Assembly: GCA_004431415.1 (NCBI GenBank)
Contig: QPMI01000035.1
Location: forward strand, 62,001 to 126,000
DNA length: 64,000 nucleotides
Origin: Cyanophora paradoxa CCMP329
Lineage: Eukaryota; Plantae; Glaucophyta
Direction: 5' to 3'
Below are positions 11,293 to 64,000 of this stretch, one piece after another (position 1 is the first letter of the stretch; every line of letters starts with the position of its first letter). Position numbers and translations under genes: made by a program. Below the pieces are notes generated by a model. The model was not told where the DNA came from. It did not search any database and was given only the letters and a program-made list of their open reading frames with translations.

Positions 11293-11332
<40 letters not shown>

Positions 11333-33371: not shown

Positions 33372-33567
33372 GTTCCAGCCCGCATAGTACTGTGGTTTAA
33401 TTTCGGGTAGCCATGGAACCCTTTCGCTGGCGGAAAACGCCAATCATTTACTACAGCAAGTCGACTCAAAAAGCTTCAGTCTAAAACTTACTCGGGCGAT
33501 TTGGTGATTGGACAATTTAAATCATAAAGGATTCTGATCGGTTTCTGGAGCTACTTGATTATCGCCC

Positions 33568-43967: not shown

Positions 43968-44020
43968 ATTGCGGGCTGCCGGGGGCCCGAGGTCGATGTG
44001 AAGTACGTGTGGTGTTGCGT

Positions 44021-44378: not shown

Positions 44379-44439
44379 GCTAGCTGCAGCCCATTTCGCT
44401 GCAGCCCTCCGCTGCGCCGGCCGCTGGGGCGATATATCG

Positions 44440-47400: not shown

Positions 47401-48878
47401 CTCGAGCTCCGCCGCCGCCGACGACGACGATGCCGCCGACGCCGGCGTCGACGCCGACGCCGTCCGCCGGTGCGCCGCGGCGTACATAGACTCTGGGCCG
47501 GTCTCTAGATCTTAATAGATCTTGGATCGGGGGGTGCAATATTAATTTATTGGACGCGATCGAAATCGGCGCCAAACATCGGACGCATGCAGGGTGCACG
47601 AGCTGCGGCGCCGCATCGCAGGCGAGTCTCGGAAGCGGGACAAGGCCAGGCGCCGAGAGGAGGAGGAGGCGCAGCGGCGGGCCGAGGAGCAGCGGCGCGA
47701 GGAGGAGCGGAGCGCGCGGGAGGAGCTGCAGCGGCGGGAGCGGGAGGAGCGGGGGGAGCGCGAGCGCAAGGAGGCGCGCCGGCGGGAGCGGGAGCGCAGG
47801 AAGGAGGCGAGGCGGGGCGAGGCGGACGATCGCGAGGCGGAGGCGAAAGCTAAGGCGGAGGCCGAGAGGCGGCGGCGGAAAGAGGATGATGATGAGGAGA
47901 AGCTGGAGTCCGAGCGCCGCCTGAATTCGAATTCGAAGGAGGAGCAGCATGTGCAGCTGCAGCGCTCGGGGGATCCAGAGCGGCATTGGCGGGCTTCGAA
48001 TTCGATTTCTGGTGGATCTGGATCCGCAACTGGAGGCGCCGCCGCGTGCTTCTTCTTCGCGAAGGGCACCTGCCGCGGCGGGGCGCAGTGCAGGCGGGTT
48101 CTTCGCTCTCTAGATATTATTTTTATTATAATTCCTGTTGACTTTAAAACGGCGTTCTGGCTCTTCCGAGCTCTTATATATTTTTATATCGTAGATTCAG
48201 GCACGACGTCGACGTCGATCCCGCGGCGGCCTCTGCAGCTCTTCCCGAGGATCCGGACGCTCGCGATCGCGATCAGCAGCTGGCCATGGAGCAGCGGCTC
48301 GAGCGGGCGCGGCTCGCCGAGCACGAGCGGCGGGGGCGGCTCTGGTGGGCGGCCCGGGACCGCGAGGAGGCGCGGCGGCGGGAGCGGGAGCGGGAGCAGG
48401 AGCGGCGCCGGCGGGAAGAGGAGGCGCGGCAGAGCGCGGGGGGCGCCCACGACGTCGACCGGCCCCAGCTGCAGCCGCCGGCGGCAGAGCTGCAGCTGCA
48501 GCCGTGCCGCTTCCACGCGAAGGAGGCGCGGCGGCGGGAGCGGGAGCGGGAGCGGGAGCAGCGCCGGCGGGAAGAGGAGGCGCGGCGGTGCGCGGGGGGC
48601 GCACGTGATGTGGACCGGCCCCAGCAGCCGGTGGCCGAGCTGCAGCTGCAGCCGTGCCGCTTCCACGCGAAGGGCTTCTGCCGCGACGGCGCCCGGTGCG
48701 GGTGGGCCTTGTTCGGATGATCATGATCATGGTCATTAATTACGCATTTAAATTTCTAGGCTTCGCGATCGAATTCGCGGCTGTTCACGCTGCGCGCTGC
48801 GCGCCGGGCAAGTACCGGCACGAGACGACGGCCGCGGGGGACGCGCCGGCGCCCGCGGAGTGCGCCATCAAAAAATGA
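44440..48878 (+). CDS. CCCH zinc-finger protein with hydrophobic N-terminal segments and charged coiled coils (multi-exon; 3' end abuts viral insertion)
   Basis: ACFFFAKGTCRGGAQCR|FRHD and QPCRFHAKGFCRDGARC are CCCH-type starts. E/R-rich coiled coils. Hydrophobic exons at 44600-45800 may belong to this gene (uncertain). Confidence 0.55.
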
Positions 48879-49589
48879 GAGAGAGCCCACCGCGGTGGCC
48901 CACCCCTCTCCGCCACCCCCATCCCATCACCACCTCTCTCGCTGCACCAGCCCTAGCGTCCACCCCGCTATCACTCCAACCCCGCTCTCTCGTTACGTCT
49001 ACCCCGCTCTCTTGTTACGTCTACTATCCGATTCCCTAGGTCGAAGCCTAGCAATATCTGACGACTATACAAGGCAGAGGAGACAACAAGAATAGGCGAA
49101 GAGGAGCGCTGCCCCCATGAGCGCGGTCTGCAGAGCAACGGGGCAGAATAGGCTAGACGATATTAATGTGTACAATGAAGCTAACAGAGGAAACACGTTT
49201 AGCTCAATTCTAGACGATATTAATGAGTACAATGAAGCTAACAGAGGAAACACGTTTAGCTTAATTTTAGGCGATATAGATGAGTACGATGAAGCTAACA
49301 GAGGAAGCACGTTTAGGTTAATTTTAGGCGAAATGATGAGAACATTGAAGCAACCAGAGGAAAAGCGTTTAGCTCTATCTAGGCGATAATGATGAGTACA
49401 TTGAAGCACTTCGTGTCCCAAGAGCGCTCTGGTGCGGCCTCTGGAGAGAGTAACTTTTTACATTCACTGTAATTCCTAGCTTGCCATGAGCAGCACCAGT
49501 GACATGTTATAAAGGAATAGCACCGCCCTATAGTAACGAGCGGTTGGTTGCGCGCTTTCTCCGAAAATCTTTTGGAGCGCTATTGTTAA
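48878..49589. repeat. Probable left terminal inverted repeat / non-coding terminus of the element
   Basis: Starts (AG)4, followed by palindrome CCACCGCGGTGG (48887-48898), a duplicated ~22-mer accccgctctct.gttacgtct (~48979-49022) and a 57-bp array. The partner TIR is not in the window. Confidence 0.6.
49154..49410 (+). repeat. Tandem array of ~4.5 x 57-bp units
   Basis: Unit starts tag(a/g)cga at 49154, 49211, 49268, 49325, 49380. Core gatgagtacaatgaagctaacagaggaaacacgtttag. Divergence increases rightwards. Confidence 0.9.
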
Positions 49590-52500
49590 ATGGAACGACG
49601 GTTTGAGATCGCGCGGCTCAAAGAGCAGATAGCAGGCCAGGCCGAGGTTTTGTACAATCGCAGGTTTATTCATGGACAATTTAGAAACAAACTACAGCGC
49701 ATCAGTGCGAGTGGCTCACGTACGAGACTACCGACACTTAAGAAATACGCATCACTTTTGAACGAGCTTTCAACAGTACCAAGACCGCCGAGACCAGTTT
49801 CAGCTGCTCGGCTAGAGGTTGCTATTGCTGAGGGTATTGTAGCAGGATTTTCAGAGCTTCCCGATCCGAGTGTGAGCGAGTTCAGCGAAACTGAAATTGC
49901 AGAGGAGGGCGGCACAGTGACGACACGTACAGCGCTGAACGGGACATACGCTGACTGGGAGTACAGGCCCTCACGTGGAACAGGCCGAGTCACGTCGATG
50001 CAGGCACAGATTGAAAATAACGCGAGGTTCAGAGCAGGCGCAGTGGCATTTGCGAGCGTGCAGCAAGAATTAGCGAGTCAGGATCGAATGGGTATAGCTT
50101 TGCAGGTATCAGGAGTTGGACTCTATCGCAAGCCAAATGAAGACTCAGCGCTTGCAGTAGTGATTGAGCACAGGAAATTTTACCGTATACTCCCAGGGTC
50201 AGACGTTGTTGAGGCGATCCGCTCACAGCTGGAGGAGCTAGATACTATTGCGCAGGAAAAGAGCCGTGATTCTTCCGCTTTCGAGACATGGATTAAGCTA
50301 CGCTTTACAGTGATTAGATATTTTAGACGTATGGGCGGCCGTGGACGTGGGTTTGTACTTCCGAGCTGGCTTGCACTCAAGCAGGCCTTGATCAATATCA
50401 ATGCACCAAACAACGAGTGCTTTAAATATGCTGTCCTCGCAGCGCGCAATCCGCTGGCCCCAGGGGTGGATTCGAGACATGCAGGAAGCTATCGGCAGCA
50501 CGAGGCATCGCTAGATTGTACTATGCTAACGTATCCGACACCACTCGATTCGAAAATGTTCAGCAAATTTGAGTGTGCGAATAATGTTAAGCTATGTGTA
50601 TACACGACTGCGCTAGACAAACAAGACATCGTTCCAATCCACATAAGCGCAGCAACAGATGCTATACCAATACTGTACGTGCCAGCAGGCGACGGGAATG
50701 ATGTGGGGCATTATTTGTGGATAAAGAACATATCGCGCCTGTTTGGAAAGCATGGGTCGAATGCGAAGCACTATTGCCTGGCCTGCCAGTGCGGCTTTAG
50801 CTCAGACGAGGCCTTTCAGAATCATCTTAAATACGACCGGTGCCTTGATCGAGATGAGCACGCCAGGGACGTGCTTCCGAAAAAGGGCGAGCACTTTATA
50901 AAATTCAATAGTTTCGAAAAGACGATTCGCCAAAGACTAGTTGGGTATGCGGACTCGGAAACTATGACTGTACCTGTTTTACAGACCGAGAGTCCAGCAA
51001 AGACGAAGCAGCTAGGAGTCCACGCAATAGCGTCGATCGGCTGCTTAGTTATTCTAAACAAGGGGCAAAATCAAGGAACGAATGAAACTGTAGAAAGCGT
51101 TGAAAATTCAGAGACGATGCAACAGGAGCAGTTTTGGTTCTCGCATATGGGATCACAAACTGAGGAGTCTGCAGAGGCATTTGTTGCTTGGCTAGATGAA
51201 AAAGAGCCGCAGTTTAAGGGAATCTTGGAGGAGAAAGCGACGATGCAGATTACACAGGCGCAAGAGCGCTCCTTTCAGGCAGCAGAAACATGCTATATGT
51301 GTGGAAGCGAGTTTAAAGAAGTCAAAGATAAAAATCGAGATCACTGCCACGACTCCGGGCAGTATCTTGGAGCGGCATGCAATGCCTGCAACAGGCGACG
51401 AGCAAAAGCTGCCGCCGTGCCAATATTCTTTCACAATGGACGAGGATTTGACTTTCACCTATTAGTGAGGGCTTTAGCAGCAGGATATAACCGGCGGAAA
51501 GTCGCAGAAAATGCATTCCGAGACGAGGTCGAGCGCAAGTTTCAAGCAAAATACGCAGGACGTGAGCTGAGTACAGATCATGCAATAAATGCAAAGAAGC
51601 GACTTGAGCGTGAATTACGTCCTCGTGAGTTACTGTCGACGAAGTTTGACCAGGTGTTTCAGAACAGCGAGCGTATGTCACAGTTCACATACGGCATTTA
51701 CGTTTTCCGTGACTCTGCTCAGCACCTGCAGGGTAGTCTCGATAGCCTTGCGGCTGCAGTACCTGATGTGAAAAAGAATATCACACGTGCACTACATGAG
51801 AGCGAGACACGGTTCAAACTAATGACGCGCAAGGGTGTCTATCCATACAAGTACATTACGGGCTGGGATCGTCTTGCAGAGACATCACTACCAGGACGCC
51901 GCCAATTTTACAATGAGCTAAAACAGTTGAAGTGCTCTCGTGATGATTATATCCACGCTCAATCGGTCTGGCGTGAGCTTGGTTGCAGGACAATGGCTGA
52001 CTATACATTGGAGTACATGAAGACAGACATAGCTCTTCTAGGAGACATATTTGAAAACTACCGTGACACGTGTATGGAGACGTATAAGCTGGACCCAAGC
52101 TACTTTATGAGCATTCCAGGTTTCTCGTGGCAAGCAGCTTTGAAACACACTGGCCAGCAACTGGAGCTGTTTCACGAAGGGCAAGAAGATATGCACCGCT
52201 TTATTGAGAAAGGGATTCGGGGAGGAATCTCGATGATATCAACACGCTATGCTAGAGCTAATAATGCCTGGATTGATAAGTACATCGTGGGTCACAGGAA
52301 AAAACAGGGCTGGTTACTTTATCTCGATGCGAATAATCTTTATGGACTTTCTATGAAACAGAAACTTCCTACAGGGGACTTCAAATGGGAGAACATTAGT
52401 ATTACTACTGATCCTAAACTGTATATCACAGACCTAGATGCAAACGGTCCACGAGGGTTTGCTTTGGAGGTTGACATGCATTGTCCTGAAGATCTGCATG

Positions 52501-53633
52501 ATTATTTCAGCGATTATCCGCTAGCTCCCGAGCGAATGTGCGTATCAAAAGAGCACCTATCAGAGGCGCAGCGAAAAACTATTGAGCGTGAAAAACTAAG
52601 CGGGATCGAGAGAACGCCAAAGCTGGTTCCAAACCTGTTGCCAAAGAAGAATTATGTTGTTGATGCACGAGTGCTACAGTTTTATGTGTCGATGGGAATG
52701 GTTGTTTCTAGAATACACAGAGTGCTTTCGTTCGAGCAAAGTGCATGGCTAGAGAGCTATATCGATTTGAACACTCTGAAGCGAAAACAGGCAGAATTCC
52801 CGTATGAAAAAGATCTTTATAAGCTACTAAATAATGCGGTGTTTGGGAAAACGATGGAAAACGTACGCAAGCACTGCAATTCAGAGCTTGTGACAACAGG
52901 AGAACGACTAGCGAAAATCAACACAGAGCCGAACCGCTTGAGACAGGTCGCTATCTATGACGAAAACTTGGTGTATGTAAATAAGCGAAAGAGCGAATAC
53001 AAACTCAACAAACCGATCTACTGTGGGTTCACAATCCTTGATCTATCAAAGCTACATATGTATCGGTTTTACTACCAGGTGCTGAAAGCGCTTTGGGGCG
53101 AGCGGCTTAAGCTACTTGGAACAGATACAGACAGTCTCATTATTCAGATTGAGACCGAAAATTTATACGAGGACCTTCGCAAAATCAAAAACGAGCTAGA
53201 TGTTAGTGAATACCCTACGAGTCACCCGTTCTTTGAAGGGATGTCAGAAGACGAAGTGCAGCGACTAAGATCGATGGGCAAGGTTCCCGGGCTGTTCAAG
53301 GACGAGTGTGGCGGCAGACAAATGCTTGAGTGGATCGCGAACCGACCGAAATCGTACTATATGAGCACAGAGGAATCACAAGTGCACAAGTGCAAGGGCG
53401 TTAACAAGACGTTCAGCAGCTCGCTGACACGAGAGCGATACTACGACTGCATCTTTGGGGGCATATCATGCAACGTAGATGGAATTCTCGGCTTCAGATC
53501 GAAACAGCATCGGATCTGGCTACAGCGGACATCAAAGCAAGCCCTACACCCGCTTGATACCAAGCGATTCCTGTGCGAGGATGGTGTGAACACCAGGGCG
53601 ATAGGTCACTATAAAAATCTTTCGAATAACTAA
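49590..53633 (+). CDS. polB: Protein-primed family B DNA polymerase polyprotein (putative TP, OTU-like protease, C2H2 finger, exonuclease with Endo VII insert)
   Basis: 1347 aa intact ORF. ExoI YADSET, ExoII FHNGRGFD, KGVYPY, ExoIII YMKTDIALL; Pol A YLDANNLYG, Pol B KLLNNAVFGK, Pol C GTDTDS. CYMC...RDHCH..G.Y.GAAC..CN (Endo VII-like). ININAPNNECF...GHY. Confidence 0.96.
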   Translation: MERRFEIARLKEQIAGQAEVLYNRRFIHGQFRNKLQRISASGSRTRLPTLKKYASLLNELSTVPRPPRPVSAARLEVAIAEGIVAGFSELPDPSVSEFSETEIAEEGGTVTTRTALNGTYADWEYRPSRGTGRVTSMQAQIENNARFRAGAVAFASVQQELASQDRMGIALQVSGVGLYRKPNEDSALAVVIEHRKFYRILPGSDVVEAIRSQLEELDTIAQEKSRDSSAFETWIKLRFTVIRYFRRMGGRGRGFVLPSWLALKQALININAPNNECFKYAVLAARNPLAPGVDSRHAGSYRQHEASLDCTMLTYPTPLDSKMFSKFECANNVKLCVYTTALDKQDIVPIHISAATDAIPILYVPAGDGNDVGHYLWIKNISRLFGKHGSNAKHYCLACQCGFSSDEAFQNHLKYDRCLDRDEHARDVLPKKGEHFIKFNSFEKTIRQRLVGYADSETMTVPVLQTESPAKTKQLGVHAIASIGCLVILNKGQNQGTNETVESVENSETMQQEQFWFSHMGSQTEESAEAFVAWLDEKEPQFKGILEEKATMQITQAQERSFQAAETCYMCGSEFKEVKDKNRDHCHDSGQYLGAACNACNRRRAKAAAVPIFFHNGRGFDFHLLVRALAAGYNRRKVAENAFRDEVERKFQAKYAGRELSTDHAINAKKRLERELRPRELLSTKFDQVFQNSERMSQFTYGIYVFRDSAQHLQGSLDSLAAAVPDVKKNITRALHESETRFKLMTRKGVYPYKYITGWDRLAETSLPGRRQFYNELKQLKCSRDDYIHAQSVWRELGCRTMADYTLEYMKTDIALLGDIFENYRDTCMETYKLDPSYFMSIPGFSWQAALKHTGQQLELFHEGQEDMHRFIEKGIRGGISMISTRYARANNAWIDKYIVGHRKKQGWLLYLDANNLYGLSMKQKLPTGDFKWENISITTDPKLYITDLDANGPRGFALEVDMHCPEDLHDYFSDYPLAPERMCVSKEHLSEAQRKTIEREKLSGIERTPKLVPNLLPKKNYVVDARVLQFYVSMGMVVSRIHRVLSFEQSAWLESYIDLNTLKRKQAEFPYEKDLYKLLNNAVFGKTMENVRKHCNSELVTTGERLAKINTEPNRLRQVAIYDENLVYVNKRKSEYKLNKPIYCGFTILDLSKLHMYRFYYQVLKALWGERLKLLGTDTDSLIIQIETENLYEDLRKIKNELDVSEYPTSHPFFEGMSEDEVQRLRSMGKVPGLFKDECGGRQMLEWIANRPKSYYMSTEESQVHKCKGVNKTFSSSLTRERYYDCIFGGISCNVDGILGFRSKQHRIWLQRTSKQALHPLDTKRFLCEDGVNTRAIGHYKNLSNN

Positions 53634-54562
53634 TGGCACCCTCATTCAAAATCACTGCACCACCAGGGGCATATCAAGTCGACATACTTTTCATAGGACG
53701 TTTTCGACTATTTGCAGCGATTGAGATTGCAACTCGATTCGCAGTTGTCAGAAAGCTTGAAGATGCTAAACAGATTCCGAAATTCATCGCTCAGCTGCCT
53801 GGGATCTGGGGTTTTTCGGGCGACAATGGCTTTAATACGGCTGCTGTGCGGGCAATGGCCGAAGAGAATTCATTTTCGATGCACACTGACGTCGCTAAGG
53901 ATGATCACATATCGAAAGGCGACAAGCTAGGGATCATCGATCGATTCGCACGGACATTGCGAGCCATGATTCAGGCAGACACAGAGGAACGAGGGTCGCC
54001 GAATTTTCTCTCCCGGCTGCCTGCTTTGATCAAGGCATACAATCAAACAAAACACAGCTCTTTTGGCAGAGAGTATTCACCAGCCTGGATGCGAGATCAC
54101 CCGCAGGTTGCTGCCCAGCTGCACCAGGTGCGTCAACGACAGAACGACATTGAGAGAGACGCATTGAATCTACCAAAGCCAGGGACTGAGGTGCAGATAC
54201 TCGAGCCTAAGAGCAGAATCTTTGCGAAGGGAGCTACAAAACCGAGCAAGGAGACGTACGCAGTCGTGGGGCAGGACAGGAACCGAATAAGGGTCGCAAC
54301 CAAAGAGGGACAGATATTAAGCCGTAGAATCAAGCCTTCAGAAATTCGAGCCCCGAGACAGCTTCCGAATCAGTCAAAAATAGAACGAGCTGCGGCTAAG
54401 GCAAAGCAAGAGCGACAGCTACGGCGCGAGGGCCTCATCGAAGCAAAAAAGTATAGCGGACAGAGTCGGCAAGCTCGTGAGCTCAAGAAACTAGAGGTTG
54501 CAGGGGAGCCTTTGCTGCGGTTAGGCAGTAAGGTCGCTGGAAACTATGCCCGCCGCAATTAG
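53633..54562 (+). CDS. int: Retroviral-type (rve) integrase
   Basis: YQVDIL, AIEIATRF, SGDNG, LGIIDRFARTLR, YNQTKHSS; basic C-terminal tail. Overlaps the polB stop as TAATG. Confidence 0.92.
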   Translation: MAPSFKITAPPGAYQVDILFIGRFRLFAAIEIATRFAVVRKLEDAKQIPKFIAQLPGIWGFSGDNGFNTAAVRAMAEENSFSMHTDVAKDDHISKGDKLGIIDRFARTLRAMIQADTEERGSPNFLSRLPALIKAYNQTKHSSFGREYSPAWMRDHPQVAAQLHQVRQRQNDIERDALNLPKPGTEVQILEPKSRIFAKGATKPSKETYAVVGQDRNRIRVATKEGQILSRRIKPSEIRAPRQLPNQSKIERAAAKAKQERQLRREGLIEAKKYSGQSRQARELKKLEVAGEPLLRLGSKVAGNYARRN

Positions 54563-54838
54563 CGACCTAATTTCAGTGCGCCTTCGCTCTCGGTATTTTC
54601 GGTCGTTGTCAAGTTTTCGTTCAGGGTGTGCAAGGTTATATTGACGGGAGACAGCAATCTGCCGCTGCCGGTAATCTGGATTTTCATGGTATCGCTTTCG
54701 CTGCAGATCTGCACGTCTTTTGCGTCTCTCTGCAAGTATCTCTGGCGTAACCTCAGTACGTATGTGCACAGGCTTATCAATATTCTTGCGAGGCCTGCCT
54801 CGTGGACGGGAAGCAGTCGTGATTTCCGCACTGTCCAT
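54521..54838 (-). CDS. Small basic DNA-binding protein with AT-hook
   Basis: RPRGRPRK AT-hook, then an R/K-rich helix ERRKRRADLQRKRYHENPDYRQRQ...KYRERRR. Confidence 0.7.
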   Translation of the reverse strand: MDSAEITTASRPRGRPRKNIDKPVHIRTEVTPEILAERRKRRADLQRKRYHENPDYRQRQIAVSRQYNLAHPERKLDNDRKYRERRRTEIRSLIAAGIVSSDLTA

Positions 54839-54939
54839 TATGAGTGGGTATGTGATTGATATATAGGAAAGAAATTCGAGAAACGTTTATGGCGCGTTCA
54901 AATCGAAAAATTAAATCGCAGCGGTTTATATAAAACAAA

Positions 54940-55200
54940 ATGGTCGCAGGAACAATTCGATTTGGGAAGTACCGCGGTGAAACTCATCTTAAAGTAGTTT
55001 TTAGCGACCCAAAATATGCGGAATGGTTGTTATCTTGGCCGCATCTTCGTGAGTACGACAAAAGGGAATTGCAGCGGGCCTTTGAAATTTGTCAATCGAA
55101 TGATCTGGCAACAGTAAACGGGATGCTTGAATATGTAGAGCGAGAGAGGAAACCTACTGTGGAAGATCTAACAGATTTGCCTGATTTTGACTTGTCTTAA
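54940..55200 (+). CDS. Small protein with FGKY.G...D..Y..WL motif (DUF3820/ExoX C-terminal-like)
   Basis: IRFGKYRGETHLKVVFSDPKYAEWLL. TATATAAAAC precedes the ATG. Confidence 0.65.
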   Translation: MVAGTIRFGKYRGETHLKVVFSDPKYAEWLLSWPHLREYDKRELQRAFEICQSNDLATVNGMLEYVERERKPTVEDLTDLPDFDLS

Positions 55201-55232
55201 AGAGATCTCAATCTCAGATTGTAAAGAGAGAC

Positions 55233-55796: not shown

Positions 55797-56373
55797 CATT
55801 TGGTTCGAAAACATTTGGAGTTGCTGGTTTTACAGCTGCATCATCAAGAGCTTGTGAAGCCTTCTCTTTTTCGTTTTTCAGATAACGTAAATCTGGTACA
55901 TCCATAGGTCGATGTTTAAACATCTCGCTACGGAGCATCTCCCGTATTTTTGCGCGTTCTTGCTTTTCCTTAACGTATGATTCGATATTAGCCGATCGAG
56001 CCTCGAGATCTCGCAATTTAGCTGTTAGTTCCTCGATCTGACTCTTTGATACTGTTGCTGTCTTGATTTTTGGCCCTGAATAACGTGGTTCAGATGCCAT
56101 GGCTTGGATAATTCTAGCAGCATCATCATCGATATCAGACTGCATTTCGTTTACAGTTTTAGCCTGGCTTTGTCGGTCGTCAACCGCAGTGGCATTTGCT
56201 GCTGCCGACGCAATTGTTTTCGCTACGGGTGCGTTTAGTTTGGGGTTGCTTGCAAGCTCCCCGCTAGGATCAGCAACAGCTGCGCCTTCAGTCGACCCAC
56301 TTTCAACTAGTGGTTCAACAACATTGACCTTGCGTCTTTCACGATATCCCTTCTTAGGAATCCCTTTTGCCAT
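55744..56373 (-). CDS. Hypothetical viral protein with coiled coil
   Basis: 209-aa ORF between HNH and ATPase. Basic N-terminus; heptads IEELTAKLRDLEARSANIESYVKE. Confidence 0.7.
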   Translation of the reverse strand: MAKGIPKKGYRERRKVNVVEPLVESGSTEGAAVADPSGELASNPKLNAPVAKTIASAAANATAVDDRQSQAKTVNEMQSDIDDDAARIIQAMASEPRYSGPKIKTATVSKSQIEELTAKLRDLEARSANIESYVKEKQERAKIREMLRSEMFKHRPMDVPDLRYLKNEKEKASQALDDAAVKPATPNVFEPNAIGSQMKGALGGRRIRL

Positions 56374-56382
56374 CTTCTGTTC

Positions 56383-57114
56383 TTAAGATAATATTTTAAA
56401 ACGCCTTTTTTTAGAGATAACAGGCAATTCTTTTTTAGACTCTTCTTCTTGTTTTAGCCATTTAGAGAAACGAAAACTCTTATCTTCGACGGCTTTATCA
56501 ACGTACCAGGCAGTATCATATTTAGTTCCATCCAGGACTAGGCACTGATAATCGTGCGCCCAAGTTTGGAACAAAGCAATAAATTCATCTTTCGGGATGT
56601 GAGAAAACTCTCTATAAATTGTCTCCAGTTCGGTGTGATTAGAGTAACTGAAGAAAAAACAATAGTCAGAGTTCGATCTTATAGACTGACTCAAAGCAGT
56701 CAATTTTTGCGTCATTAGAATGGTACTGATATTAAAATGACGGCCCTGCGTAAAAAGGCGATTTACAGTCTTGCTATTTCGCAGATCAACAGTTTCAGAG
56801 GCAGCAACAAGATCATCTAAGACTAGCAATATCTGCGGCGCTTTCTTTTTGTTTTCAATCAAATTTCGCTGTGAATCAATGATTTCAGCAACGATAGATG
56901 GCTGAAAATCGTCATAAAGCTCTTTAGTTATTGCAGAATACTCGCCGTTGAATTTGGTGGCGGTAAACACAACAACTCGATTGATCTTTGGATATAACAG
57001 TCTAAGTAAATGCTTTGTGCAATAGAAAGACTTGCCGCTATTGGACTTTGAAATAAATAGGGCCTTAAAGGGAACCCTCATTTCTCCAGGCTGGAACTTT
57101 GCAAGCTCATCCAT
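56383..57114 (-). CDS. A32/FtsK-like genome packaging ATPase
   Basis: Walker A ISKSNSGKS, Walker B LLVLDD, A32 signature LFTQGRHFNISTILMTQ...SIRSNSDY. Confidence 0.93.
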   Translation of the reverse strand: MDELAKFQPGEMRVPFKALFISKSNSGKSFYCTKHLLRLLYPKINRVVVFTATKFNGEYSAITKELYDDFQPSIVAEIIDSQRNLIENKKKAPQILLVLDDLVAASETVDLRNSKTVNRLFTQGRHFNISTILMTQKLTALSQSIRSNSDYCFFFSYSNHTELETIYREFSHIPKDEFIALFQTWAHDYQCLVLDGTKYDTAWYVDKAVEDKSFRFSKWLKQEEESKKELPVISKKRRFKILS

Positions 57115-57165
57115 CAAAAAATTAAAGACTGATATTCGCAGGCGAACACAACCGCGACCATTTGA

Positions 57166-58554
57166 CTAGAGGTTAACTTTGCGAAGACCCGCAGCATCAA
57201 CAATTAGGACAGTGTGAAGAAGAGCGCGAACCTGGACGTAAATTTTGTTGTTCGCATCGTAAGCAGCAGGGTTCATGATATTCAGGAAGCAGCTGCTGGA
57301 GTTCGTCAGATCTACGAACCCAGTTTGAGCAGCATTTCGGAGCGATTTATCCCCACTAATGCAAAATGGCAAACCAGTCAGAACATACCGATTAAGAGGT
57401 GCGTCGAGATTGGAGCACTTGAAGACATCAGCGATGAGTTCGGCACCTTGCAGGAGAGGAACGGGCTCATTTGAATAAAGTCTCTGGCCATTCAATTCGC
57501 AGGAAATAGTGATATCGCGAGCATTAGCCTCGGTTTTGAGGACACTGTGTTTTCCATCAGTTTGGTTCATGTTTGGCTGCTTGCGAATGCTAACGAACAG
57601 GCCGTAGCAAAGTCCACTGATTTGAGACAGATTAATCCGGGTGGGCGCACCAGCACCAGCATAAGTAATTGAATCAGCATCAACCCAGCCGACATCGGTA
57701 GCGGGAATTGCGATTCCAGACGTTTTGACTTTCTCAATCACCTGGGCAAAAGTGGCCTCATCAATGTTGATGCAATGAGCAATAATCTTAGGATTAGAAA
57801 GCTCTGGATTGGCAGGGGTGACACTGAGAACATTGGGAGTTATATTCTGGCCGATGTTTGCTGGGGAAGCAGCAGCGGCTCCAACACTACCAAGGCCATC
57901 TTCTTTAGTGGCATCACCGCCGATGGCATATTCTGTTACAAACCTACCACCATAGCTGGTCTCGACGAAGCCCTGGGCACGATCACGGAACCAAACCTCG
58001 ACAGACACCTCGCCAGAAAGAGCACCAATTGGGAGCACAGAACCCTCCCAGGGACATGGGATTTTTACACTGAAAATACCTCCAGCACGATTTGTCCCCT
58101 GAGGTGGTGTTCCATGAAGCCAGCCACCGGACCGGTATTTCTTTTTGAGCTGAGCATCATCATTGTAAATCAGTGCGCTGTGAACAAGCCAGTCCTCGGG
58201 GACGATGTAGCTGTAGGAAGCATATTTGATTTCAATTCGCTTTACAAGAGCACCAACAGACCGCAGATAACCAGTGCGAACCAGGTCAGTGTCACCAGTA
58301 AAAGCGGTCAACTCGGGCAGGGTAAACTGGAGTTCGAGCCCCTGAAGGAAGTTGTATCTGGGAAGGAAGTAGGTGACTCGTTTACCGAAGCAGTCTCCAT
58401 AGTCATTGCTTGGGTTGACAACAACACGAACAGGCTTGGTTTGGCTCGTTAGACCCAACATAAGCTCATTGTTCATAAAGAAGTCCTTCGCTTCCTGCGG
58501 AGTTGTCAGGAGCTCTTTGAGGCCGAGCCGCTGCAAATTTTGAGTGACATCCAT
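57166..58554 (-). CDS. Double jelly-roll major capsid protein
   Basis: 462 aa from ATG 58554. FGKRVTYFLPR...LELQFTLPEL...VGALVKRIEIK...DWL...LPIGALSGEVSVEVWFR resembles DJR capsid N-domains. Lies between the ATPase and a penton. Confidence 0.82.
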   Translation of the reverse strand: MDVTQNLQRLGLKELLTTPQEAKDFFMNNELMLGLTSQTKPVRVVVNPSNDYGDCFGKRVTYFLPRYNFLQGLELQFTLPELTAFTGDTDLVRTGYLRSVGALVKRIEIKYASYSYIVPEDWLVHSALIYNDDAQLKKKYRSGGWLHGTPPQGTNRAGGIFSVKIPCPWEGSVLPIGALSGEVSVEVWFRDRAQGFVETSYGGRFVTEYAIGGDATKEDGLGSVGAAAASPANIGQNITPNVLSVTPANPELSNPKIIAHCINIDEATFAQVIEKVKTSGIAIPATDVGWVDADSITYAGAGAPTRINLSQISGLCYGLFVSIRKQPNMNQTDGKHSVLKTEANARDITISCELNGQRLYSNEPVPLLQGAELIADVFKCSNLDAPLNRYVLTGLPFCISGDKSLRNAAQTGFVDLTNSSSCFLNIMNPAAYDANNKIYVQVRALLHTVLIVDAAGLRKVNL

Positions 58555-58604
58555 CGATTTATATAATTGCAGTGAAAGAAAATAATTCTGCCGCTTCGCC
58601 AAGG

Positions 58605-58633
58605 GGCGCAGCCGAGCTGCTTGTCTGCGACTT
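58605..58633 (-). promoter_or_regulatory. Conserved intergenic motif AAGTCGCAGACAAGC..GCTCGGCTGCGCC (copy upstream of MCP)
   Basis: Reverse complement matches copies at 60612-60644 and, more degenerate, 60560-60598. Confidence 0.55.
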
Positions 58634-58656
58634 CGCTTGCGTGCCGCGAGCTTAGC

Positions 58657-59613
58657 TCAGTTTGACGAATTGATCCAAGGATATGTCTTTGACCTTTTCT
58701 GGAGCTGAAGTTTTGCAAGTTCGTAAACAACATCACCATTGGGTTCGTCAGGACCATAACGAATTTCGAGAATAAATGACACAGGAGCTCCATTTAAATC
58801 AGCGATTCGCTGCATAAAATCGTATATCTCAATAGTCACAGAGTACAGGTCCAGCTTTGAATAAACATACTTATACAAAGGAGTTGCTTCAGTTGAATCA
58901 TAGTAGGCTGTTTCGCCTGGACGGAGGGCGCTGGGAATGCTGAGCTTTGAGAAAAAGCCAGGAATTGAAGTATTGGGCATACTGACAAGGTCACCAATTT
59001 CAGGAATGCGAAGTAGCACATGATCATCGGGAGTGACATCGGGTTCATAAGCGCCTTCTATATATTGAATATCGACAGTTAAAGCCTTAGACCGAATCGG
59101 TAGAATTGATCGCAAGCCTAGCAGCTTTGCAGTTCGCTGAGCCCTAGCAACAGCCTGGTAGTTTCTGATTTCCCGCCCACCCAGGTTCGGTGCCAACATC
59201 AGAGCAATAAAGAACTCGAAGCTAGCTGTGAACCCTATTGATTTAACTGCTGAATTATACGTGCACGTGATACCAGTCCCCGTCAACCTTTCGTTTATCT
59301 TTGTCACAAGCGAGGTGACGTCGTAATTTCCAGGTGGAATTGTAATGTTATTCCAGGCTCCAAAACCTGGCTGAGGTGGGTCTGGTCCCTCATTTGCAGG
59401 ATCATATTTGCACCAATATATATACGTGTCAAACACTAAATCCTCTGCTGGATCGAGTGCATCAACTGTGCTCATTGTGTTGGGGATCTCAGCAGATACC
59501 AGGCGCACGGCTTTTACATCCTGATAAACTTTAGGCAGTCTTACTTTAAATTTTGAGGTGGATGTCAGCTCATCCGCTTGGTGGCTTGCAATGCAGACGT
59601 AGTCCGTCGGCAT
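58657..59613 (-). CDS. Minor capsid (penton, single jelly-roll) protein 1
   Basis: N-terminal IASH...SKFKVRLPKVYQDVKAVRLVSAEIPNT, ITIPPGNY, C-terminal LYSVTIEIYD...DLNGAPVSFILEI. Confidence 0.82.
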   Translation of the reverse strand: MPTDYVCIASHQADELTSTSKFKVRLPKVYQDVKAVRLVSAEIPNTMSTVDALDPAEDLVFDTYIYWCKYDPANEGPDPPQPGFGAWNNITIPPGNYDVTSLVTKINERLTGTGITCTYNSAVKSIGFTASFEFFIALMLAPNLGGREIRNYQAVARAQRTAKLLGLRSILPIRSKALTVDIQYIEGAYEPDVTPDDHVLLRIPEIGDLVSMPNTSIPGFFSKLSIPSALRPGETAYYDSTEATPLYKYVYSKLDLYSVTIEIYDFMQRIADLNGAPVSFILEIRYGPDEPNGDVVYELAKLQLQKRSKTYPWINSSN

Positions 59614-59640
59614 CTTTTTTATATCAGTTAGAGAATAAAA

Positions 59641-60556
59641 ATGGTCGAAGACAAGCATCGACGCTGCGCCAGGCTCAGCTTTGACAGTAGAGACAGAAGG
59701 CCAATCGATTCAGAGGCAAACTTTGTGCTAGAAATAAATGAACCTATAATCAATCCAGTTGCTGTTCGACTTACCCAGTGTGAGTTCGCAAACAGCCTTT
59801 ACACGAGCATTAGAGATGAGTATCTTTCGATCACCTTCCCCAACATTTGGACGGAAAATCTGGCAGTTTTTGAGCCTGGTATAATTACTACTGCAAATAT
59901 GGGCGAAACAGATCTTTACAACTTTGGCCTATCGTTTAAGTTTGAACTGGGGGAATCGTAATAGCATATTTCAAATTGTTTCGGGACCAGAGACACTGAA
60001 GATGTCTGCCTATTGCAACCGTTCCTGCACAGTAACCTGCCAGTTCAAAGCTCTATCGAATCTGCTAGGGCTGAACCGAAATGAGCCCCTCCAGCTGTCT
60101 CCTATCGTGTTTGAAGGAGGACAAAGATCAGTAACTGCAGCTGAGCGATATCTCGAGGTTGCTGGCATTCCAGTAACACCTTCACACCCTGAATATGGCG
60201 TGGATTTCACCGAAAGAATGCGGAGTGAGCCACTTGGTTATGCTGTCGAATTTCCAAAGATAATTGACATGAACAGCGACCAGTATCTATTCCTAGTCTG
60301 TGAAGAGCTTCGACCATTTGCTTCAAAGCTTCGCCGTGGGGCCAAAACAATGTGCAACTACGGGCTTGCTCGAATTCAAATGAGTCAGGACGTTGGCAAA
60401 TTCGTTTATATAAATCAGGATCATCAAAGCGAATGGATCCCCATCGAAGAGCGTCTTGTGCTGACTTCCTTGCGACTGCGCATTGTAGACAGAGATGGTG
60501 ATGATGTATTACTGAATGGATTGCCATGGTCTGGGGAGCTCCAGTTCATCACTTAG
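59641..60556 (+). CDS. Minor capsid (penton) protein 2, with one frameshift near 59925-59960
   Basis: N-part LSFDSRDR...NFVLEINEPIINPVAVRLTQCEFANSLY (59641-59961). C-part QYLFLVCEEL...ARIQM...LTSLRLRIVDRDG..VLLNGLPWSGELQF (59924-60556). Confidence 0.75.
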
Positions 60557-60559
60557 GGA

Positions 60560-60644
60560 AAGTCGCCAGAGTTGCAGACAAGCAGCGACCGCTGCGCCAA
60601 ACTGATTTGAAAAGTCGCAGACAAGCCGCTCGCTCGGCTGCGCC
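60560..60644 (+). promoter_or_regulatory. Two copies of the same intergenic motif upstream of ORF 60687
   Basis: aagtcgccagagttgcagacaagcagcgaccgctgcgcc and aagtcgcagacaagccgctcgctcggctgcgcc. Confidence 0.55.
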
Positions 60645-60686
60645 TGGGTTGCGCCCCGTTTTATTTCTTGGCACAATATATAAAAA

Positions 60687-61019
60687 ATGTCGCAGTTGAT
60701 GCCCATAGCTCAGATTGAAAAGTACTTACCGTTGATGCGGGACAAAAAAGTATCACTTGTTGCGATTGGAGATAAGCCAAGCACACAAACAAACCTAGGT
60801 TTTCTGCAAGCTTACCGCCGATTTGGTCCTGACGGAATCAAAAAGGAGCTCGCAACCAGAAACACAACTTGGTATCAGCGAAGAGAGAATTACATTAAGA
60901 GGCGACTGGGAGGGCGTAATGGAGCACCATTTTGGGAGAAAGATAAATCTGGCAGAACTATTCCAACATGTCTTGGACTCTCTCTGATTTCCTGGGCATT
61001 CATGCCGCCGCCTAATTAA
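60687..61019 (+). CDS. Hypothetical viral protein (110 aa)
   Basis: Globular-looking ORF (VSLVA..GFLQAY..WYQRRENYIKRR..PT.L.LSLISWAF) preceded by TATATAAAAA-ATG. Confidence 0.72.
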   Translation: MSQLMPIAQIEKYLPLMRDKKVSLVAIGDKPSTQTNLGFLQAYRRFGPDGIKKELATRNTTWYQRRENYIKRRLGGRNGAPFWEKDKSGRTIPTCLGLSLISWAFMPPPN

Positions 61020-62495
61020 TGTAACGTCCCCGGAAATCAAGCCGGAATGCATTCACATTTATAAATTCGTTTGTTATAATTTGCACATAGTTATATACCT
61101 GTGGGGTGAACAAATGCGAGTCACTATGCATTAGATCGAAGCCTGCCATTGTTGGGTTCGCAGCAAGCACATTTGCTAGGACCGTATTTTCAAAAAGCCT
61201 CCCATCTTGGACATATCCTAAGTTGGTCAGAATGCTGAAATTAAATAGGACTCCGGCAGCAAATGCTGGCCCATACATAATGATTTGATGTAGCTCAAAA
61301 GGCTTGGGAAACTCGACTTTAATCCAGGGATTAGGTAAAGTGCCCCCTTGGAACCCTGTTGAGTTGGGTCGCACATGAGAAGGTGGGTGCAATTCCTCAA
61401 AGTCGTTGCTTGTAATGTTTGCATCTGGAATTATAAACCAGTTGACATCAAATGGCGGCTCAACTGTTAAAGTAGACGATATGATTAGTCTCTCATCGTT
61501 CAGTAGGTCATAGTTCGCCAGTAGAAAGCTGCAGAGTGCATTTATTTTAGCATTTATTTCGATTTGTTTCAGCCATAAATCTGTCGTGGAAATCAAATAA
61601 GAAATATTCGATGGGGAGGCATCGTCAAGCTTGCTCATGACTGCAGCTGGTAGCGGAACACTTAAACGCCAGTATCTTGTTAGATTCCTATCCGCATCAA
61701 CTGGAAGCAGTTCCTGCATTTGAAAGTGCGATTCCAGCTCGCTACCAGCCATTAGCATAGAAATGATTGGGCTGCCTGAGAGGGATAGGATCCAGCCCAG
61801 TGCGCCCCAGCCTGACGTCTCCGAATTCGAAAAGCCTGCAGTCAATTGCTCACTGGCTTGGACTTCACCACAGCTAATGCTCACAAGAACAATTGGATCT
61901 TCTGCATCGTAAATTTTACTGGCGTGGCTGAGTGCAGCAACTGAGGGATTATTCAAACAGGCAATTGCCCGTCAACAAGGTTTTTGTCCCCTAGAACCTT
62001 CGGTGGAAAGAATGTAGGCGCTGCAGAAGATGCTCTCACTGCATCACGAATCAGCGTGCTTGAATATGGCCCATCCTTCGTAAAAACTACGGGCTGCATC
62101 CGAACTGTATCAAACGCTGTTATTAATACATCTTTTGTCGATTCTGCAATTGTGTAGTCCTGGGCAACGTCTGTGAGCACCGACTCCAGAGGGTTTGCAT
62201 CATAGCGGCTGCCTGAGAGCAAGCTTGTCAGTGATCTTGGATTTGCAAATATTGTTGGCAGGTTCGTTTGATATAGACTCAAGATATCACCTGCAGAATA
62301 TCGGTAAGCGAGAACAGAGCCTGGAGTTGATGGAATAGCCAAACCGGCCGCTATTATCGCCCCTGTTGAGGTGCCTGCAAAGAAATCAAACAGCTGTGGT
62401 ATTGCTTTCCCAGTAATCGCCTCAATCCGCTGTAGAATTCGGGCAATGACTATGCCACGAGCATCTCCACCTGATAGTGAGAGAATGACCTTCAT
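61012..62495 (-). CDS. Patatin-like phospholipase with C-terminal beta-sandwich (discoidin-like) domain; single frameshift at ~61970
   Basis: ILSLSGGDARG, FDFFAGTSTG (catalytic Ser), RASSAAPTFF, LVDG. Adding one G to the G-run gives DGAIACLNNP and joins the two ORFs. C-terminal PWIKVEFPKPFELHQIIMYG...YNYVQI. Confidence 0.85.
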
Positions 62496-62519
62496 TTTTA
62501 AAAGGGGGCTTCTATAAAA

Positions 62520-64000
62520 ATGTCCTACATCTTGAAGAAGCCAGTGCCACTTCGTAGATCTCCAGATTTCGTTGATGATCGACTCATAAATATTCGCGTT
62601 TTCGGAAGCATCTTGGCAGACTTCAATGCTGATCGTGACATCCACAGGACCGAGTTTAGTCGACCAGCTGCATTAATTCTGCGGAACTCCCACGTTGGTG
62701 CCCCGGATATTGCACAGAGATTCTGTCTTGGTCCCACTGAGAACTTTGTTGCTGAAATTATTGGGTCCAGGCGTTGCCACGACACCTTCGCATTGCCTCC
62801 TCAGGCACAGTCTCCAAGTATGATTCCGGTAGATTGATATTTAGGCTACAAAATGATAGAGGGGTCCACACATCAGCTCTACGTCTAATTGATGAATCAA
62901 ATGATGTCGCAAACAAAACTGCAGCTCACATCACTGGGCGAATTCTCCTTGGCGAAGATGCTGCAATATCAGTGCTTGCATCACAAATTCAGCCGTTCCC
63001 TGGGATTTACTATATACCGATGCACGAGAAGCAAATCTTCTTTTCGGGTTTGATGTAAATCAAATCGATACCGAGCCAGCCACCAGGTTCGATATTCCTG
63101 GATGCACCTTCGGCTCTATCTTGATTGAGGCTGACAGGCACCTGCTCCCGGCATTGCATGATAGATATGACCTAGGGCTTCGCACCAGGCAGTGGAGAAA
63201 TATTCATGGAACTAATATTTATCAGGATGGTAAGAAGGTTAGCACCGAAGAGCAGGTTATCAACATTTTCAACTACTACTTCGGACCTATTGTCCTATAC
63301 CACCTCTTCCAGGGTTACCAAAGCCGCCAATCCCGGATGGACCTGGTCGAGAGCGAGTTGCTGATGAGACAGTTCCTTTCGGTCAACATATTGTCAGTTG
63401 GGAGCAAGTTCGCAATAAACCTATCTTCGAACCGAAAAAACAAATAGATGAACAGTATTTACCTCCTGAAATCGATATATTAGAGCTTGATGATTACCAA
63501 TTTGTCCCAGATGAGGAAGAGTTTTTACCTGACGGTTTCGACCCGCAAGAGTATGAGTATGATCAATACGACCCAAATGAGGAAGAGTATTTACCCGACG
63601 GTTTAGATCCACAAGAGTATGAGTATGAACAGAATTATGAACCCCATGAGGAATATTTAGCAGATGGTCTCGAGCCTCCTGCTGTTGAGTACGCGCAGCC
63701 TTATGAACACCATGAGGAATTATTGCCAGATGGTTTACAACCTGAGATTTTCGAGATGTACCTTGACTGGGAACAAATCAACAACAAACCAGCGAGATAT
63801 CCACCAGAGGATCACAACCATGACTGGGATGAGATCTTAGGTAAACCTGAGAAATATCCACCTGAAGATCACAGGCATGATTGGGGCGATATTGATGGAA
63901 TTCCACCTGAGTTTCCGCCGGAAGACCATAGGCATAATTGGGACGAAATCGATTTACAGCCTACTTTTGCATCAGCAGGTAATGTTATGAATGATGGGAT
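62520..64000 (+). CDS. Putative virion fibre/tail-like protein (three apparent -1 frameshifts; runs off window)
   Basis: Consecutive ORF pieces at 62520, 62774, 63121 and an open frame from ~63300 to the end. HLLPALHDRYDLGLRTRQWRNIH motif, acidic EE(Y/F)LPDG(L/F)DP repeats, and W..I..KP..YPPEDH.H repeats. Confidence 0.62.

What the first reader, a model, noticed from the sequence alone, without database searches (positions are those of the whole stretch)
48878..64000. Integrated Polinton-like virus with an unusual gene set in a GC-rich algal-type genome
A near-complete, largely intact virus module: pPolB, integrase, ATPase, MCP and penton 1 are all uninterrupted. It combines Maverick-type replication and integration genes with an NCLDV-looking capsid, two pentons, patatin, an HNH-AP2 and a phage-like fibre. 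Intact core ORFs and a sharp GC boundary suggest a recent insertion that may still be reactivatable. Endogenous PLVs in protists are established. Whether this lineage is new is inference until searched.
Basis: partly seen in the sequence, partly recalled or inferred. Interest (0 to 1): 0.88.

Follow-up and report, generated by a model that had tools for sequence, protein, structure and literature searches.

The report
Integrated Polinton-like virus, known algal group
This is a real virus genome inserted in the DNA of what is likely a glaucophyte alga, with close relatives likely elsewhere in that genome; its capsid type and gene set were already catalogued, so it is an ordinary member of a known group, apart from an unexplained eight-base stretch at its left end.

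Summary
The element is real: 15.1 kb at 46% GC in a 68% GC host, cut off by the window's end. pPolB, rve integrase, A32 ATPase, double jelly-roll MCP and penton 1 are uninterrupted. Short-read contigs from 3 of 5 runs laid cross the left junction without mismatch, though by only 21 bases.

It is not a new lineage. The MCP is 65% identical over its full length to a Cyanophora paradoxa MCP listed by Bellas 2023 (366 MCP hits in that genome). Bulzu 2025 tabulates the same gene set across 156 glaucophyte elements: ATPase, pPolB, rve, HNH, lipase, no protease. An NCLDV-like fold is reported as general for Polinton/PLV capsids.

Depth suggests a multi-copy family, and its pPolB differences are mostly silent (28 of 31). 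The breaks in penton 2, patatin and fibre match one-base length differences in short-read contigs, so they are likely assembly errors.

One correction: family-shared sequence starts at 48870 (A6-TG), not 48878. The proposed TSD is therefore either part of the viral end or a fixed target. Recency and reactivation are untested. Interest 0.25.

The parts
48644..48869 (.). Unique GC-rich host flank
   Evidence: Contig 48644-48898 at single-copy-like depth (72-97), no mismatch, in X1, X2 and X16
48870..48877 (+). A6-TG shared with other copies: viral terminus or fixed target site (unresolved)
   Evidence: Multi-copy depth starts in the last bases of bin 48840-48873 in 4 of 4 runs; X16 record 11 (depth 545) starts at 48870, and its 8 differences are all listed further right
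48878..49589 (+). Left terminal non-coding region, likely the TIR: (AG)4, a 12-bp palindrome, a 22-bp repeat x2.1 and a 57-bp repeat x4.5
   Evidence: Sequence; tandem repeats; (AG)3 is a known Maverick end motif; no partner arm in the window
49590..53633 (+). Protein-primed DNA polymerase B, 1347 aa; likely terminal protein, vOTU (C277, H374), exonuclease with an EndoVII-like insert, palm
   Evidence: PF03175, PF02945; 37-44% identity to the best 120 hits, the named ones being animal proteins; motifs in alignment; domain names inferred from Krupovic 2024 passages
53633..54562 (+). rve-type integrase, 309 aa; D17, D64 and D103 at the catalytic positions; lacks the N-terminal region of most homologs; its ATG overlaps the pPolB stop
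54521..54838 (-). 105-aa basic protein with an AT-hook, likely DNA-binding
   Evidence: PF02178 18.2 bits, cut-off 17.4
54940..55200 (+). 86-aa protein with a weak ExoX-like C-terminal motif
   Evidence: PF20600 E 0.0025, below cut-off
55233..55796 (+). HNH endonuclease with AP2 domain
   Evidence: PF13392 E 2.3e-11, PF00847 E 7.8e-6; phrog_99 E 9e-40
55744..56373 (-). 209-aa protein, likely coiled-coil, function unassigned
   Evidence: ORF; only weak coiled-coil hits
56383..57114 (-). A32/FtsK-type genome packaging ATPase
   Evidence: PF04665 E 1.1e-9; motif positions
57166..58554 (-). [quoted passage not shown]
   Evidence: 65% identical to P0001, which is the Bellas 2023 Table S2 MCP; model pLDDT 58; Foldseek E 3e-16 and Z 26.1 to PBCV-1
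58657..59658 (-). Penton (minor capsid protein) 1; start likely at 59613
   Evidence: hhalign 91.3%, E 9.5e-7 to A5; weak DUF5901 hit
59641..60556 (+). Likely penton 2, broken near 59948 and 59986 in this assembly
   Evidence: hhalign of C-terminal part 28.6%, E 6e-4, N-terminal part no match; penton motifs recalled; indels
60687..61019 (+). 110-aa protein, unassigned
   Evidence: ORF; no family hit
61012..62495 (-). Patatin phospholipase with a likely fused C-terminal domain, broken near 61967 in this assembly
   Evidence: PF01734 E 1.7e-23; indel in 4 of 4 runs; the C-terminal part has no family hit
62520..64000 (+). Fibre-like gene, broken near 62769, 62997 and 63293 in this assembly and cut by the window end
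   Evidence: C-terminal repeats hit PHROG tail/fibre families, best tail hit E 5.7e-7; indels; segments stop-free in the implied frames
58605..60645 (.). Four copies of a GACAAGC..GCTGCGCC motif (near 58633-, 59642+, 60569+, 60612+), possibly regulatory
   Evidence: 4 in the element, 0 in the host part, 0 in 300 simulations; pattern chosen after seeing it

Best explanation
This is an integrated Polinton-like virus whose capsid protein is 65% identical to one already catalogued from a glaucophyte alga, and it is likely one of ten or more close copies in its host's genome. Shown: the gene set, intact core reading frames, the capsid fold, the host-virus junction, and mostly silent differences among related sequences. 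Inferred life cycle: the rve integrase inserts the linear genome into the host chromosome. Once out, the pPolB primes on its own terminal-protein domain, which the vOTU domain would cleave off, and copies the genome from its ends. The A32 ATPase packs it into a double jelly-roll capsid with pentons; the fibre would bind the cell and the patatin would breach membranes. No RNA polymerase or transcription factor is in view, so transcription must be borrowed. I think a co-infecting giant virus is the more likely trigger (about 55%, against 30% for host-nuclear autonomy and 15% for a family that no longer makes particles), as for most cultured PLVs. The capsid half is likely shared with copies that carry other replication genes.
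For: GC step and coding density. Domain hits. Polymerase motifs and the vOTU Cys/His are present. Fold matches: PBCV-1 Z 26.1, rmsd 3.8 over 339 residues. The MCP's best relative is identical to a Bellas 2023 Table S2 row; Table S4 lists 366 MCP hits in two clusters, 272 and 94. Bulzu 2025 Table S6, of 156 glaucophyte elements: Pox_A32 139, PF03175 49, rve 85, HNH_3 40, lipase 89, all protease columns 0, S1H helicase 34 (columns counted by me). A junction contig without mismatch in X1, X2 and X16. Contig depth is about 9-16x the flank over pPolB and integrase in X1, X4 and X16, and about 12-32x over the structural half, with a step near 56073 in 4 of 4 runs. Of 31 listed differences in pPolB, 28 are silent, against 24% expected. 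Helper dependence is reported for Gezel, one C. parva PLV and three Tetraselmis PLVs.
Against: The junction contigs reach only 21 bases past 48878 (29 past 48870), short of the tool's 31-base rule; X4 and X12 do not cover 48738-48839. Contig depth is not a copy number, and GC bias would inflate it; free viral DNA could also raise it. The host's identity is inferred from one viral homolog and base composition, not from a host gene. The right end, TIR partner and TSD are unseen. The third catalytic residue of the integrase is Asp where 7 of 10 homologs have Glu (1 has Asp, 2 have Asn), and its N-terminal region is missing. Penton 2 and the fibre rest on weak matches. The 31 differences are only those shown of 220 in the table. 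Tetraselmis virus TsV was isolated as an autonomous nuclear virus. No helper virus was identified.
Confidence: 0.85

Rival explanations
1. A new virus lineage with a novel gene combination.
For: Sequence relatives of the MCP are scarce: 1 hit in the word-indexed search and 4 credible of 9 hits among 1.84 billion representatives. There is no Pfam hit. The pPolB is a long branch outside both clusters of a 47-sequence tree. The group is not named in the main texts that I searched.
Against: The top relative is a published, confirmed MCP, and the gene content matches a published table. Cyanophora adinto-like PolB/integrase contigs were noted in 2021.
Confidence: 0.07
2. A decaying, dead provirus: the breaks in penton 2, patatin and fibre are real mutations in this copy.
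For: Six frameshift-type breaks in three genes. Contigs drop rare variants, so one broken copy among many could be hidden; at 63293 contigs with and without the extra base are both implied by depth.
Against: All six places show a one-base length difference in short-read contigs (4 of 6 in all 4 runs, 2 of 6 in 3 of 4 runs). All six touch a run of 2-5 identical bases, and no segment has an in-frame stop. A host duplication in the same window has 39 gap openings in 2.6 kb, which suggests an indel-prone assembly. Bellas 2023 reports such artefacts.
Confidence: 0.15
3. A misassembly joined free viral DNA or another copy to this host locus.
For: No contig bridges the junction by 31 bases on both sides; the element is a repeat, and its interior could be a mosaic of copies.
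Against: The same 255-base contig, without mismatch and at flank-like depth, runs from unique host DNA into the element in three runs from three studies.
Confidence: 0.04
4. A small member of the Nucleocytoviricota-related groups (Mriyavirus, Zora, Zephyr) rather than a Polisuviricotina-type element.
For: Top fold matches are all NCLDV capsids, above virophage capsids (Z 26 against 13.5-13.8). The penton has a weak DUF5901 hit. Bellas and Sommaruga 2026 describe NCLDV-related PLVs, some with pPolB or RVE. Mriyavirus-related regions are reported in a glaucophyte assembly.
Against: Identity to those capsids is only 8-14%. No Maverick or PLV capsid appeared among the PDB rows shown, so the ranking cannot separate the groups. 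No VLTF, HUH or Mriya48-like gene was recognised in the 15.1 kb in view. This rival concerns placement and is compatible with the best explanation's mechanism.
Confidence: 0.25

Closest known systems
Cyanophora paradoxa endogenous PLVs (Bellas et al. 2023, PMC10120064, Tables S2 and S4; Bulzu et al. 2025, PMC12220804, Table S6)
   Same: MCP 65% identical over its full length to a listed MCP. A32 ATPase, pPolB, rve, HNH_3 and lipase present, protease not seen. Patatin fused to another domain and phage-like fibre repeats are mentioned for this group.
   Different: Those papers give totals, not this locus. The discoidin domain was not detected here. AdoMet decarboxylase (66 of 156) and S74 chaperone (37 of 156) are not in the part in view. 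I saw no description of the termini.
Maverick-Polintons / adintoviruses (Polintoviricetes)
   Same: pPolB with vOTU Cys/His and an EndoVII-like insert, about 40% identical over the polymerase region to animal proteins among the hits; rve integrase next to pPolB; (AG)n motif at the left end.
   Different: The MCP does not hit PF21738, which three viral contigs with related pPolBs hit at E 1e-41 to 1e-56. No cysteine maturation protease in view. The host is likely an alga. Eight shared bases precede the AG repeat.
Mavirus / EMALEs (Virophaviricetes)
   Same: pPolB plus rve integrase, two pentons (recalled for mavirus), low-GC insertions in a GC-rich protist genome.
   Different: The capsid is not of virophage type (no PF21915 hit; Z 13.5 against 26.1). 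No protease seen. EMALEs show no sequence-specific integration.
NCLDV-related PLVs (Zora VC102, Zephyr; Bellas and Sommaruga 2026 preprint)
   Same: PLV-sized, with an NCLDV-like capsid fold; RVE in Zora; pPolB and lipase in some Zephyr members.
   Different: No Mriya48, HUH or VLTF recognised. Zephyr has no endogenous examples in that paper. Placement was not tested against their profiles.

Membership tests
Polinton-like viruses (broad sense) | [quoted passage not shown] | tested here: met
   Model pLDDT 58, pTM 0.59; PBCV-1 Z 26.1, rmsd 3.8, 339 aligned; Foldseek E 3e-16
Polinton-like viruses (broad sense) | A32-like packaging ATPase | tested here: met
   PF04665 38.6 bits, cut-off 22.8
Polinton-like viruses (broad sense) | Minor capsid protein (penton) | tested here: met
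   Penton 1: hhalign 91% to six putative pentons chosen by weak similarity to it, none with a curated penton annotation. Penton 2 is weaker. No fold was run.
Polinton-like viruses (broad sense) | 14-40 kb genome bounded by terminal inverted repeats | not testable with these tools
   The window ends at 15.1 kb inside the fibre gene, and no whole genome is held
Glaucophyte (Cyanophora) PLV group of Bellas 2023 / Bulzu 2025 | MCP within the 25-30% identity cluster of the listed Cyanophora MCPs | tested here: met
   65% identity, 100% coverage to P0001, the tig00020904 row of Table S2; which of the two clusters it is was not determined
Glaucophyte (Cyanophora) PLV group of Bellas 2023 / Bulzu 2025 | Gene set: A32 ATPase, rve, lipase, often HNH_3 and pPolB, no protease | tested here: met
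   comparison is with group totals, not element by element
Glaucophyte (Cyanophora) PLV group of Bellas 2023 / Bulzu 2025 | Glaucophyte host | not tested
   Inferred from the MCP relative and the GC-rich flank; no host gene was searched for taxonomy
Maverick-Polintons (Polintoviricetes) | pPolB with terminal protein-vOTU-exonuclease-palm layout | tested here: met
   Aligned over most of its length with 10 homologs; catalytic motifs and vOTU Cys/His present. The TP assignment is by position only.
Maverick-Polintons (Polintoviricetes) | rve integrase | tested here: met
   By homology to 10 rve proteins and to a coral rve-chromo protein, E 2e-7; no direct Pfam hit
Maverick-Polintons (Polintoviricetes) | Maverick-type MCP by sequence | tested here: not met
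   No Pfam hit; best phmmer hit among 350 ORFs of 22 viral contigs E 0.39; no animal Maverick MCP among the hits
Maverick-Polintons (Polintoviricetes) | Ulp1/adenain cysteine maturation protease | tested here: inconclusive
   None among the ORFs in view; the right end is missing; 0 of 156 in the published group
Maverick-Polintons (Polintoviricetes) | (AG)3 or (AGT)2 termini with a 6-bp TSD and no conservation beyond the end | tested here: inconclusive
   (AG)4 present at 48878, but 8 further bases are shared among copies; the TSD needs the right end
Virophages (Virophaviricetes) | Virophage-type MCP | tested here: not met
   No PF21915/PF22031 hit, whereas L016 hits both; Sputnik Z 13.8 and mavirus Z 13.5 against 26.1
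Mriyaviricetes and NCLDV-related PLVs | Mriya48, VLTF2/3, HUH endonuclease | tested here: inconclusive
   Not recognised by Pfam, PHROGs or NCBIfam in the part in view; the specific profiles were not available
Helper-dependent PLVs (Gezel-14T type) | Replication only with a co-infecting giant virus | not testable with these tools
   Needs culture work

The most novel reading that the evidence does not exclude
The true end is the Maverick-type (AG)4 at 48878, and the family inserts at a fixed 8-base site, A6-TG, the same A-run-ATG that opens four of its own structural-half genes. That would make it a sequence-specific Maverick-type integrase, carried by an unplaced, possibly NCLDV-related capsid lineage of glaucophytes. 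The tamer readings are an unusual A6-TG-(AG)4 terminus, or retrovirus-like TG...CA ends with an A6 target.
Probability: 0.2. Interest if true: 0.6.

Novelty: new member of a known kind. Interest (0 to 1): 0.25.

Why it matters
As it stands, it matters little. It is one more copy of a group already counted in the hundreds in a glaucophyte genome. It does add a gene-by-gene map for a group that has been tabulated but, in the texts I searched, not described or named, and whose MCP the Bulzu 2025 profiles recognised in only 2 of 156 elements. It also suggests that the apparent decay is assembly error and that the family has evolved under purifying selection. If the eight shared bases prove to be a fixed target, it would be a site-specific rve integrase in a class reported to integrate without sequence preference. 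If the element proves helper-dependent, it points to a giant virus of glaucophytes.

Tried and rejected
No whole genome is held, so the right end, TSD and copy count could not be read. RNA: no RNA holder was listed for 48100-58000; this is no evidence either way, and no RNA run was laid. Scans for related loci found nothing for the MCP, the ATPase or the integrase. Scans for the terminal motif found nothing in viral, metagenome or prokaryote collections. A profile search with five MCPs added no new relative. Five of nine MCP hits were left out: two were checked and are repeat-rich non-viral proteins; three with the same multi-stretch pattern were dropped unchecked. The first MCP model (2 sequences, pLDDT 39) was not used. 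PDB sequence searches gave nothing significant for the MCP, integrase, penton 1 or the patatin C-terminal ORF. Pentons 1 and 2 show no pairwise BLAST similarity. A discoidin domain after the patatin was not detected. The idea that the A6 run encodes the Lys-Lys of a host kinase motif got no Pfam support on a 32-residue piece and is left open. No tRNA gene. The left 141 bases fold only modestly (z -2.3, 7 of 200 shuffles). The protein atlas gave no answer. Three look-ups of earlier findings returned nothing. The pPolB tree (47 sequences: the window's, 27 of the 120 listed hits and 19 of 22 loci; midpoint root, no outgroup) shows only a long branch and cannot give a donor. No complex prediction was run. 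A paper search for target-site preference in polintons (listing only) showed no title on a site-specific polinton integrase. Supplements of the bioRxiv preprints, including the 2026 MCP profile set, could not be seen and bear on placement.
Full report
1. Is it there? Yes. GC drops from 0.68 in 1-48869 to 0.46 in 48870-64000, and 92% of the low-GC part is coding. Five core ORFs are uninterrupted: pPolB (PF03175), an integrase, an A32 ATPase (PF04665), a 462-aa capsid protein and penton 1. An HNH-AP2 gene and four small unassigned ORFs lie among them. Three genes are broken in this assembly: a likely second penton, the patatin with the ORF behind it, and a fibre-like gene that runs off the window. 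The element has no blastn match in the host part of the window. No whole genome is held, so the right end was never seen.

2. Gene identities. The polymerase region is 37-44% identical to the best 120 of 5,684 hits; the named ones are animal proteins. Exonuclease and polymerase motifs are present, with G for Y in GTDTDS, and so are a Cys and His at the positions expected for a vOTU protease (domain layout from passages of Krupovic 2024). The integrase has no Pfam hit of its own. It aligns with 10 proteins from IMG/VR contigs that all hit rve (6 of 10 above the cut-off). D17 and D64 are invariant. The third acidic position is Asp, where 7 of 10 homologs have Glu, 1 Asp and 2 Asn, and the N-terminal region of most homologs is absent. 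The MCP model (5 sequences, pLDDT 58) is a double jelly-roll: Z 26.1 to PBCV-1, against 13.8 for Sputnik and 13.5 for mavirus (Foldseek agrees). Penton 1 matches a profile of six putative pentons at 91%; these were picked by weak similarity to it, so the test is partly circular. Penton 2 matches only at its C-terminus (29%; nothing for the N-terminal piece), so that call leans on recalled motifs. The fibre call rests on C-terminal repeats that hit phage tail families.

3. Is it integrated? Twenty listed runs from 18 named studies, all under one organism label, hold 60-64% of the words of 48100-58000. I laid five of them. In X1, X2 and X16 the same 255-base contig covers 48644-48898 without mismatch, at a depth like that of the unique flank. 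It extends only 21 bases beyond 48878, below the tool's 31-base rule, and X4 and X12 have no cover over 48738-48839. I take the junction as real but not formally bridged.

4. A family, not a single copy. Contig depth over pPolB and integrase is about 9-16 times the flank in X1, X4 and X16. Over the structural half it is about 12-32 times, with a step near 56073 in 4 of 4 runs. The tool warns that depth is no copy number, and GC bias would inflate the ratio, so I read this only as 'ten or more close copies, more for the capsid half'. Of the 31 differences listed in pPolB (from 40 shown of 220), 28 are silent, against 24% expected by chance. This shows purifying selection on the family. It does not date this insertion.

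5. The broken genes. Short-read contigs differ in length by one base at six places: 59948, 59986, 61967, 62769, 62997 and 63293. Four of the six appear in all 4 runs and two in 3 of 4. These are the breaks. Each touches a run of 2-5 identical bases. The penton 2 and fibre segments between them are stop-free in the implied frames, and the lengths work out to about 305 aa for penton 2 and 494 aa for a patatin fusion. A host duplication in the window shows 39 gap openings in 2.6 kb, and Bellas 2023 describes such artefacts. Assembly error is the likely cause, but a broken copy hidden among intact ones is not excluded.

6. The left end. The contigs suggest otherwise. The excess depth in bin 48840-48873 is what multi-copy cover of its last four bases or so would give, in 4 of 4 runs. 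An X16 contig of depth 545 starts at 48870, and all 8 of its differences lie further right. The unique-flank contig stops at 48898, where it would if shared sequence began at 48869-48870. So several copies share A6-TG before the AG repeat. It is either part of the terminus or a fixed target; only the right end can tell. This rests on contig geometry, not on raw reads. EMALEs show no sequence-specific integration (passages).

7. What is known. The only full-length close relative of the MCP is P0001 (65%, 100% coverage), labelled Cyanophora paradoxa. The same protein stands in Table S2 of Bellas et al. 2023 as a confirmed MCP (HHpred 98.47% to an iridovirus MCP), and Table S4 counts 366 MCP hits in two clusters in that genome. 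I read its Results in full, one discussion passage saying that Polinton and PLV MCPs model closer to NCLDV capsids, and the supplement rows cited. Bulzu et al. 2025 (abstract, passages, sections 7 and 13 part 1, Table S6) lists 156 glaucophyte elements with 139 A32 ATPases, 49 PF03175 polymerases, 85 rve integrases, 40 HNH_3, 89 lipases, 34 S1H helicases and no protease. Their MCP profiles recognised only 2 of the 156. The text mentions discoidin fused to patatin and phage-tail repeats in this group. Starrett 2021 (section 3.4) noted relatives of adintovirus-like PolB/integrase contigs in Cyanophora. Bellas and Sommaruga 2026 (parts 1-3 of 5) report NCLDV-related PLVs and double pentons in other groups, and do not mention glaucophytes. 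Barth 2026 (abstract, part of the results) describes swapping of replication and capsid modules as common. A 2026 survey reports over 1% viral content and Mriyavirus-related regions in a glaucophyte assembly (passages). Searches for Polinton-like plus Cyanophora, glaucophyte plus polinton, and Cyanophora paradoxa plus giant virus gave no paper devoted to this group.

8. How it likely works. Shown: the parts list, intact core frames, the fold, the junction and family-level selection. Inferred from the families involved: integration by the rve enzyme, protein-primed replication from the ends with the terminal protein cut off by vOTU, packaging by the A32 ATPase, attachment by the fibre and membrane breach by the patatin. 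No transcription genes are in view. Five cultured PLVs depend on or act against a giant virus and one was isolated as autonomous, so I put helper triggering at about 55%. The T-A(5-6)-TG starts of four structural-half genes and a four-copy motif near the capsid genes are candidate late signals; both patterns were picked after looking, and the likeness to poxvirus late promoters is recalled.

9. Verdict. It works like a Maverick in replication and integration, but fails the Maverick and virophage capsid tests. It belongs with the catalogued glaucophyte PLVs. The host assignment is an inference from one viral homolog. New member of a known kind, interest 0.25. The open point worth a follow-up is the eight-base stretch at the left end (fixed-target reading: probability 0.2, interest 0.6 if true).

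Noticed in passing
window 1-2603 and 9223-11756: A host segment is present twice at 94.8% identity with 39 gap openings and 111 gap bases. It looks like an exocyst-subunit-like gene (recalled, not searched). It is either a recent duplication or one haplotype assembled twice with indel errors.
   Followed up: partly
window 58605-58633, 59642-59670, 60569-60598, 60612-60644: The motif GACAAGC..GCTGCGCC occurs four times, upstream of the MCP gene and the 110-aa ORF and at the penton 1/penton 2 divergent start; possibly a late-gene control element.
   Followed up: partly
window 59641, 60687, 62495, 62520: All 4 matches of T-A(5-6)-TG in the element sit at ORF starts of the structural half. This resembles the poxvirus late promoter TAAATG (recalled), and the same A-run-ATG is at the left end (48870).
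   Followed up: partly
window 53631-53635: The pPolB stop codon overlaps the integrase start (TAATG), which could couple their translation.
   Followed up: no
window near 55196 and 56073: Contig depth roughly doubles from about 56073 in 4 of 4 runs, and an X1 contig runs on unlike the window before 55196. Other copies likely join the same capsid half to a different left half.
   Followed up: partly
window 46234-48720: The host flank encodes charged coiled-coil repeats and CCCH zinc-finger-like motifs (PF00642 E 0.008, below cut-off), ending about 150 bases before the insertion.
   Followed up: partly
P0006, P0008, P0011 (ENA contigs of 3-12 kb) and P0002 (Logan): Unnamed proteins at 23-39% identity to the MCP show that the capsid family extends beyond the named Cyanophora record; their contigs could not be fetched.
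   Followed up: no
L018:209-730 and L018:17182-17700: This IMG/VR contig carries an HNH gene related to the window's at both ends, in opposite orientation, apparently inside its terminal repeats.
   Followed up: no
L016:13596-15302: A contig with this type of pPolB has a Sputnik-type virophage MCP, whereas L003, L004 and L013 have PF21738 MCPs: the same polymerase class pairs with different capsids.
   Followed up: no
window 32001-34000 and 44001-47000: Two host islands of lower GC (0.51-0.55) with no clear long ORF and no match to the element.
   Followed up: partly
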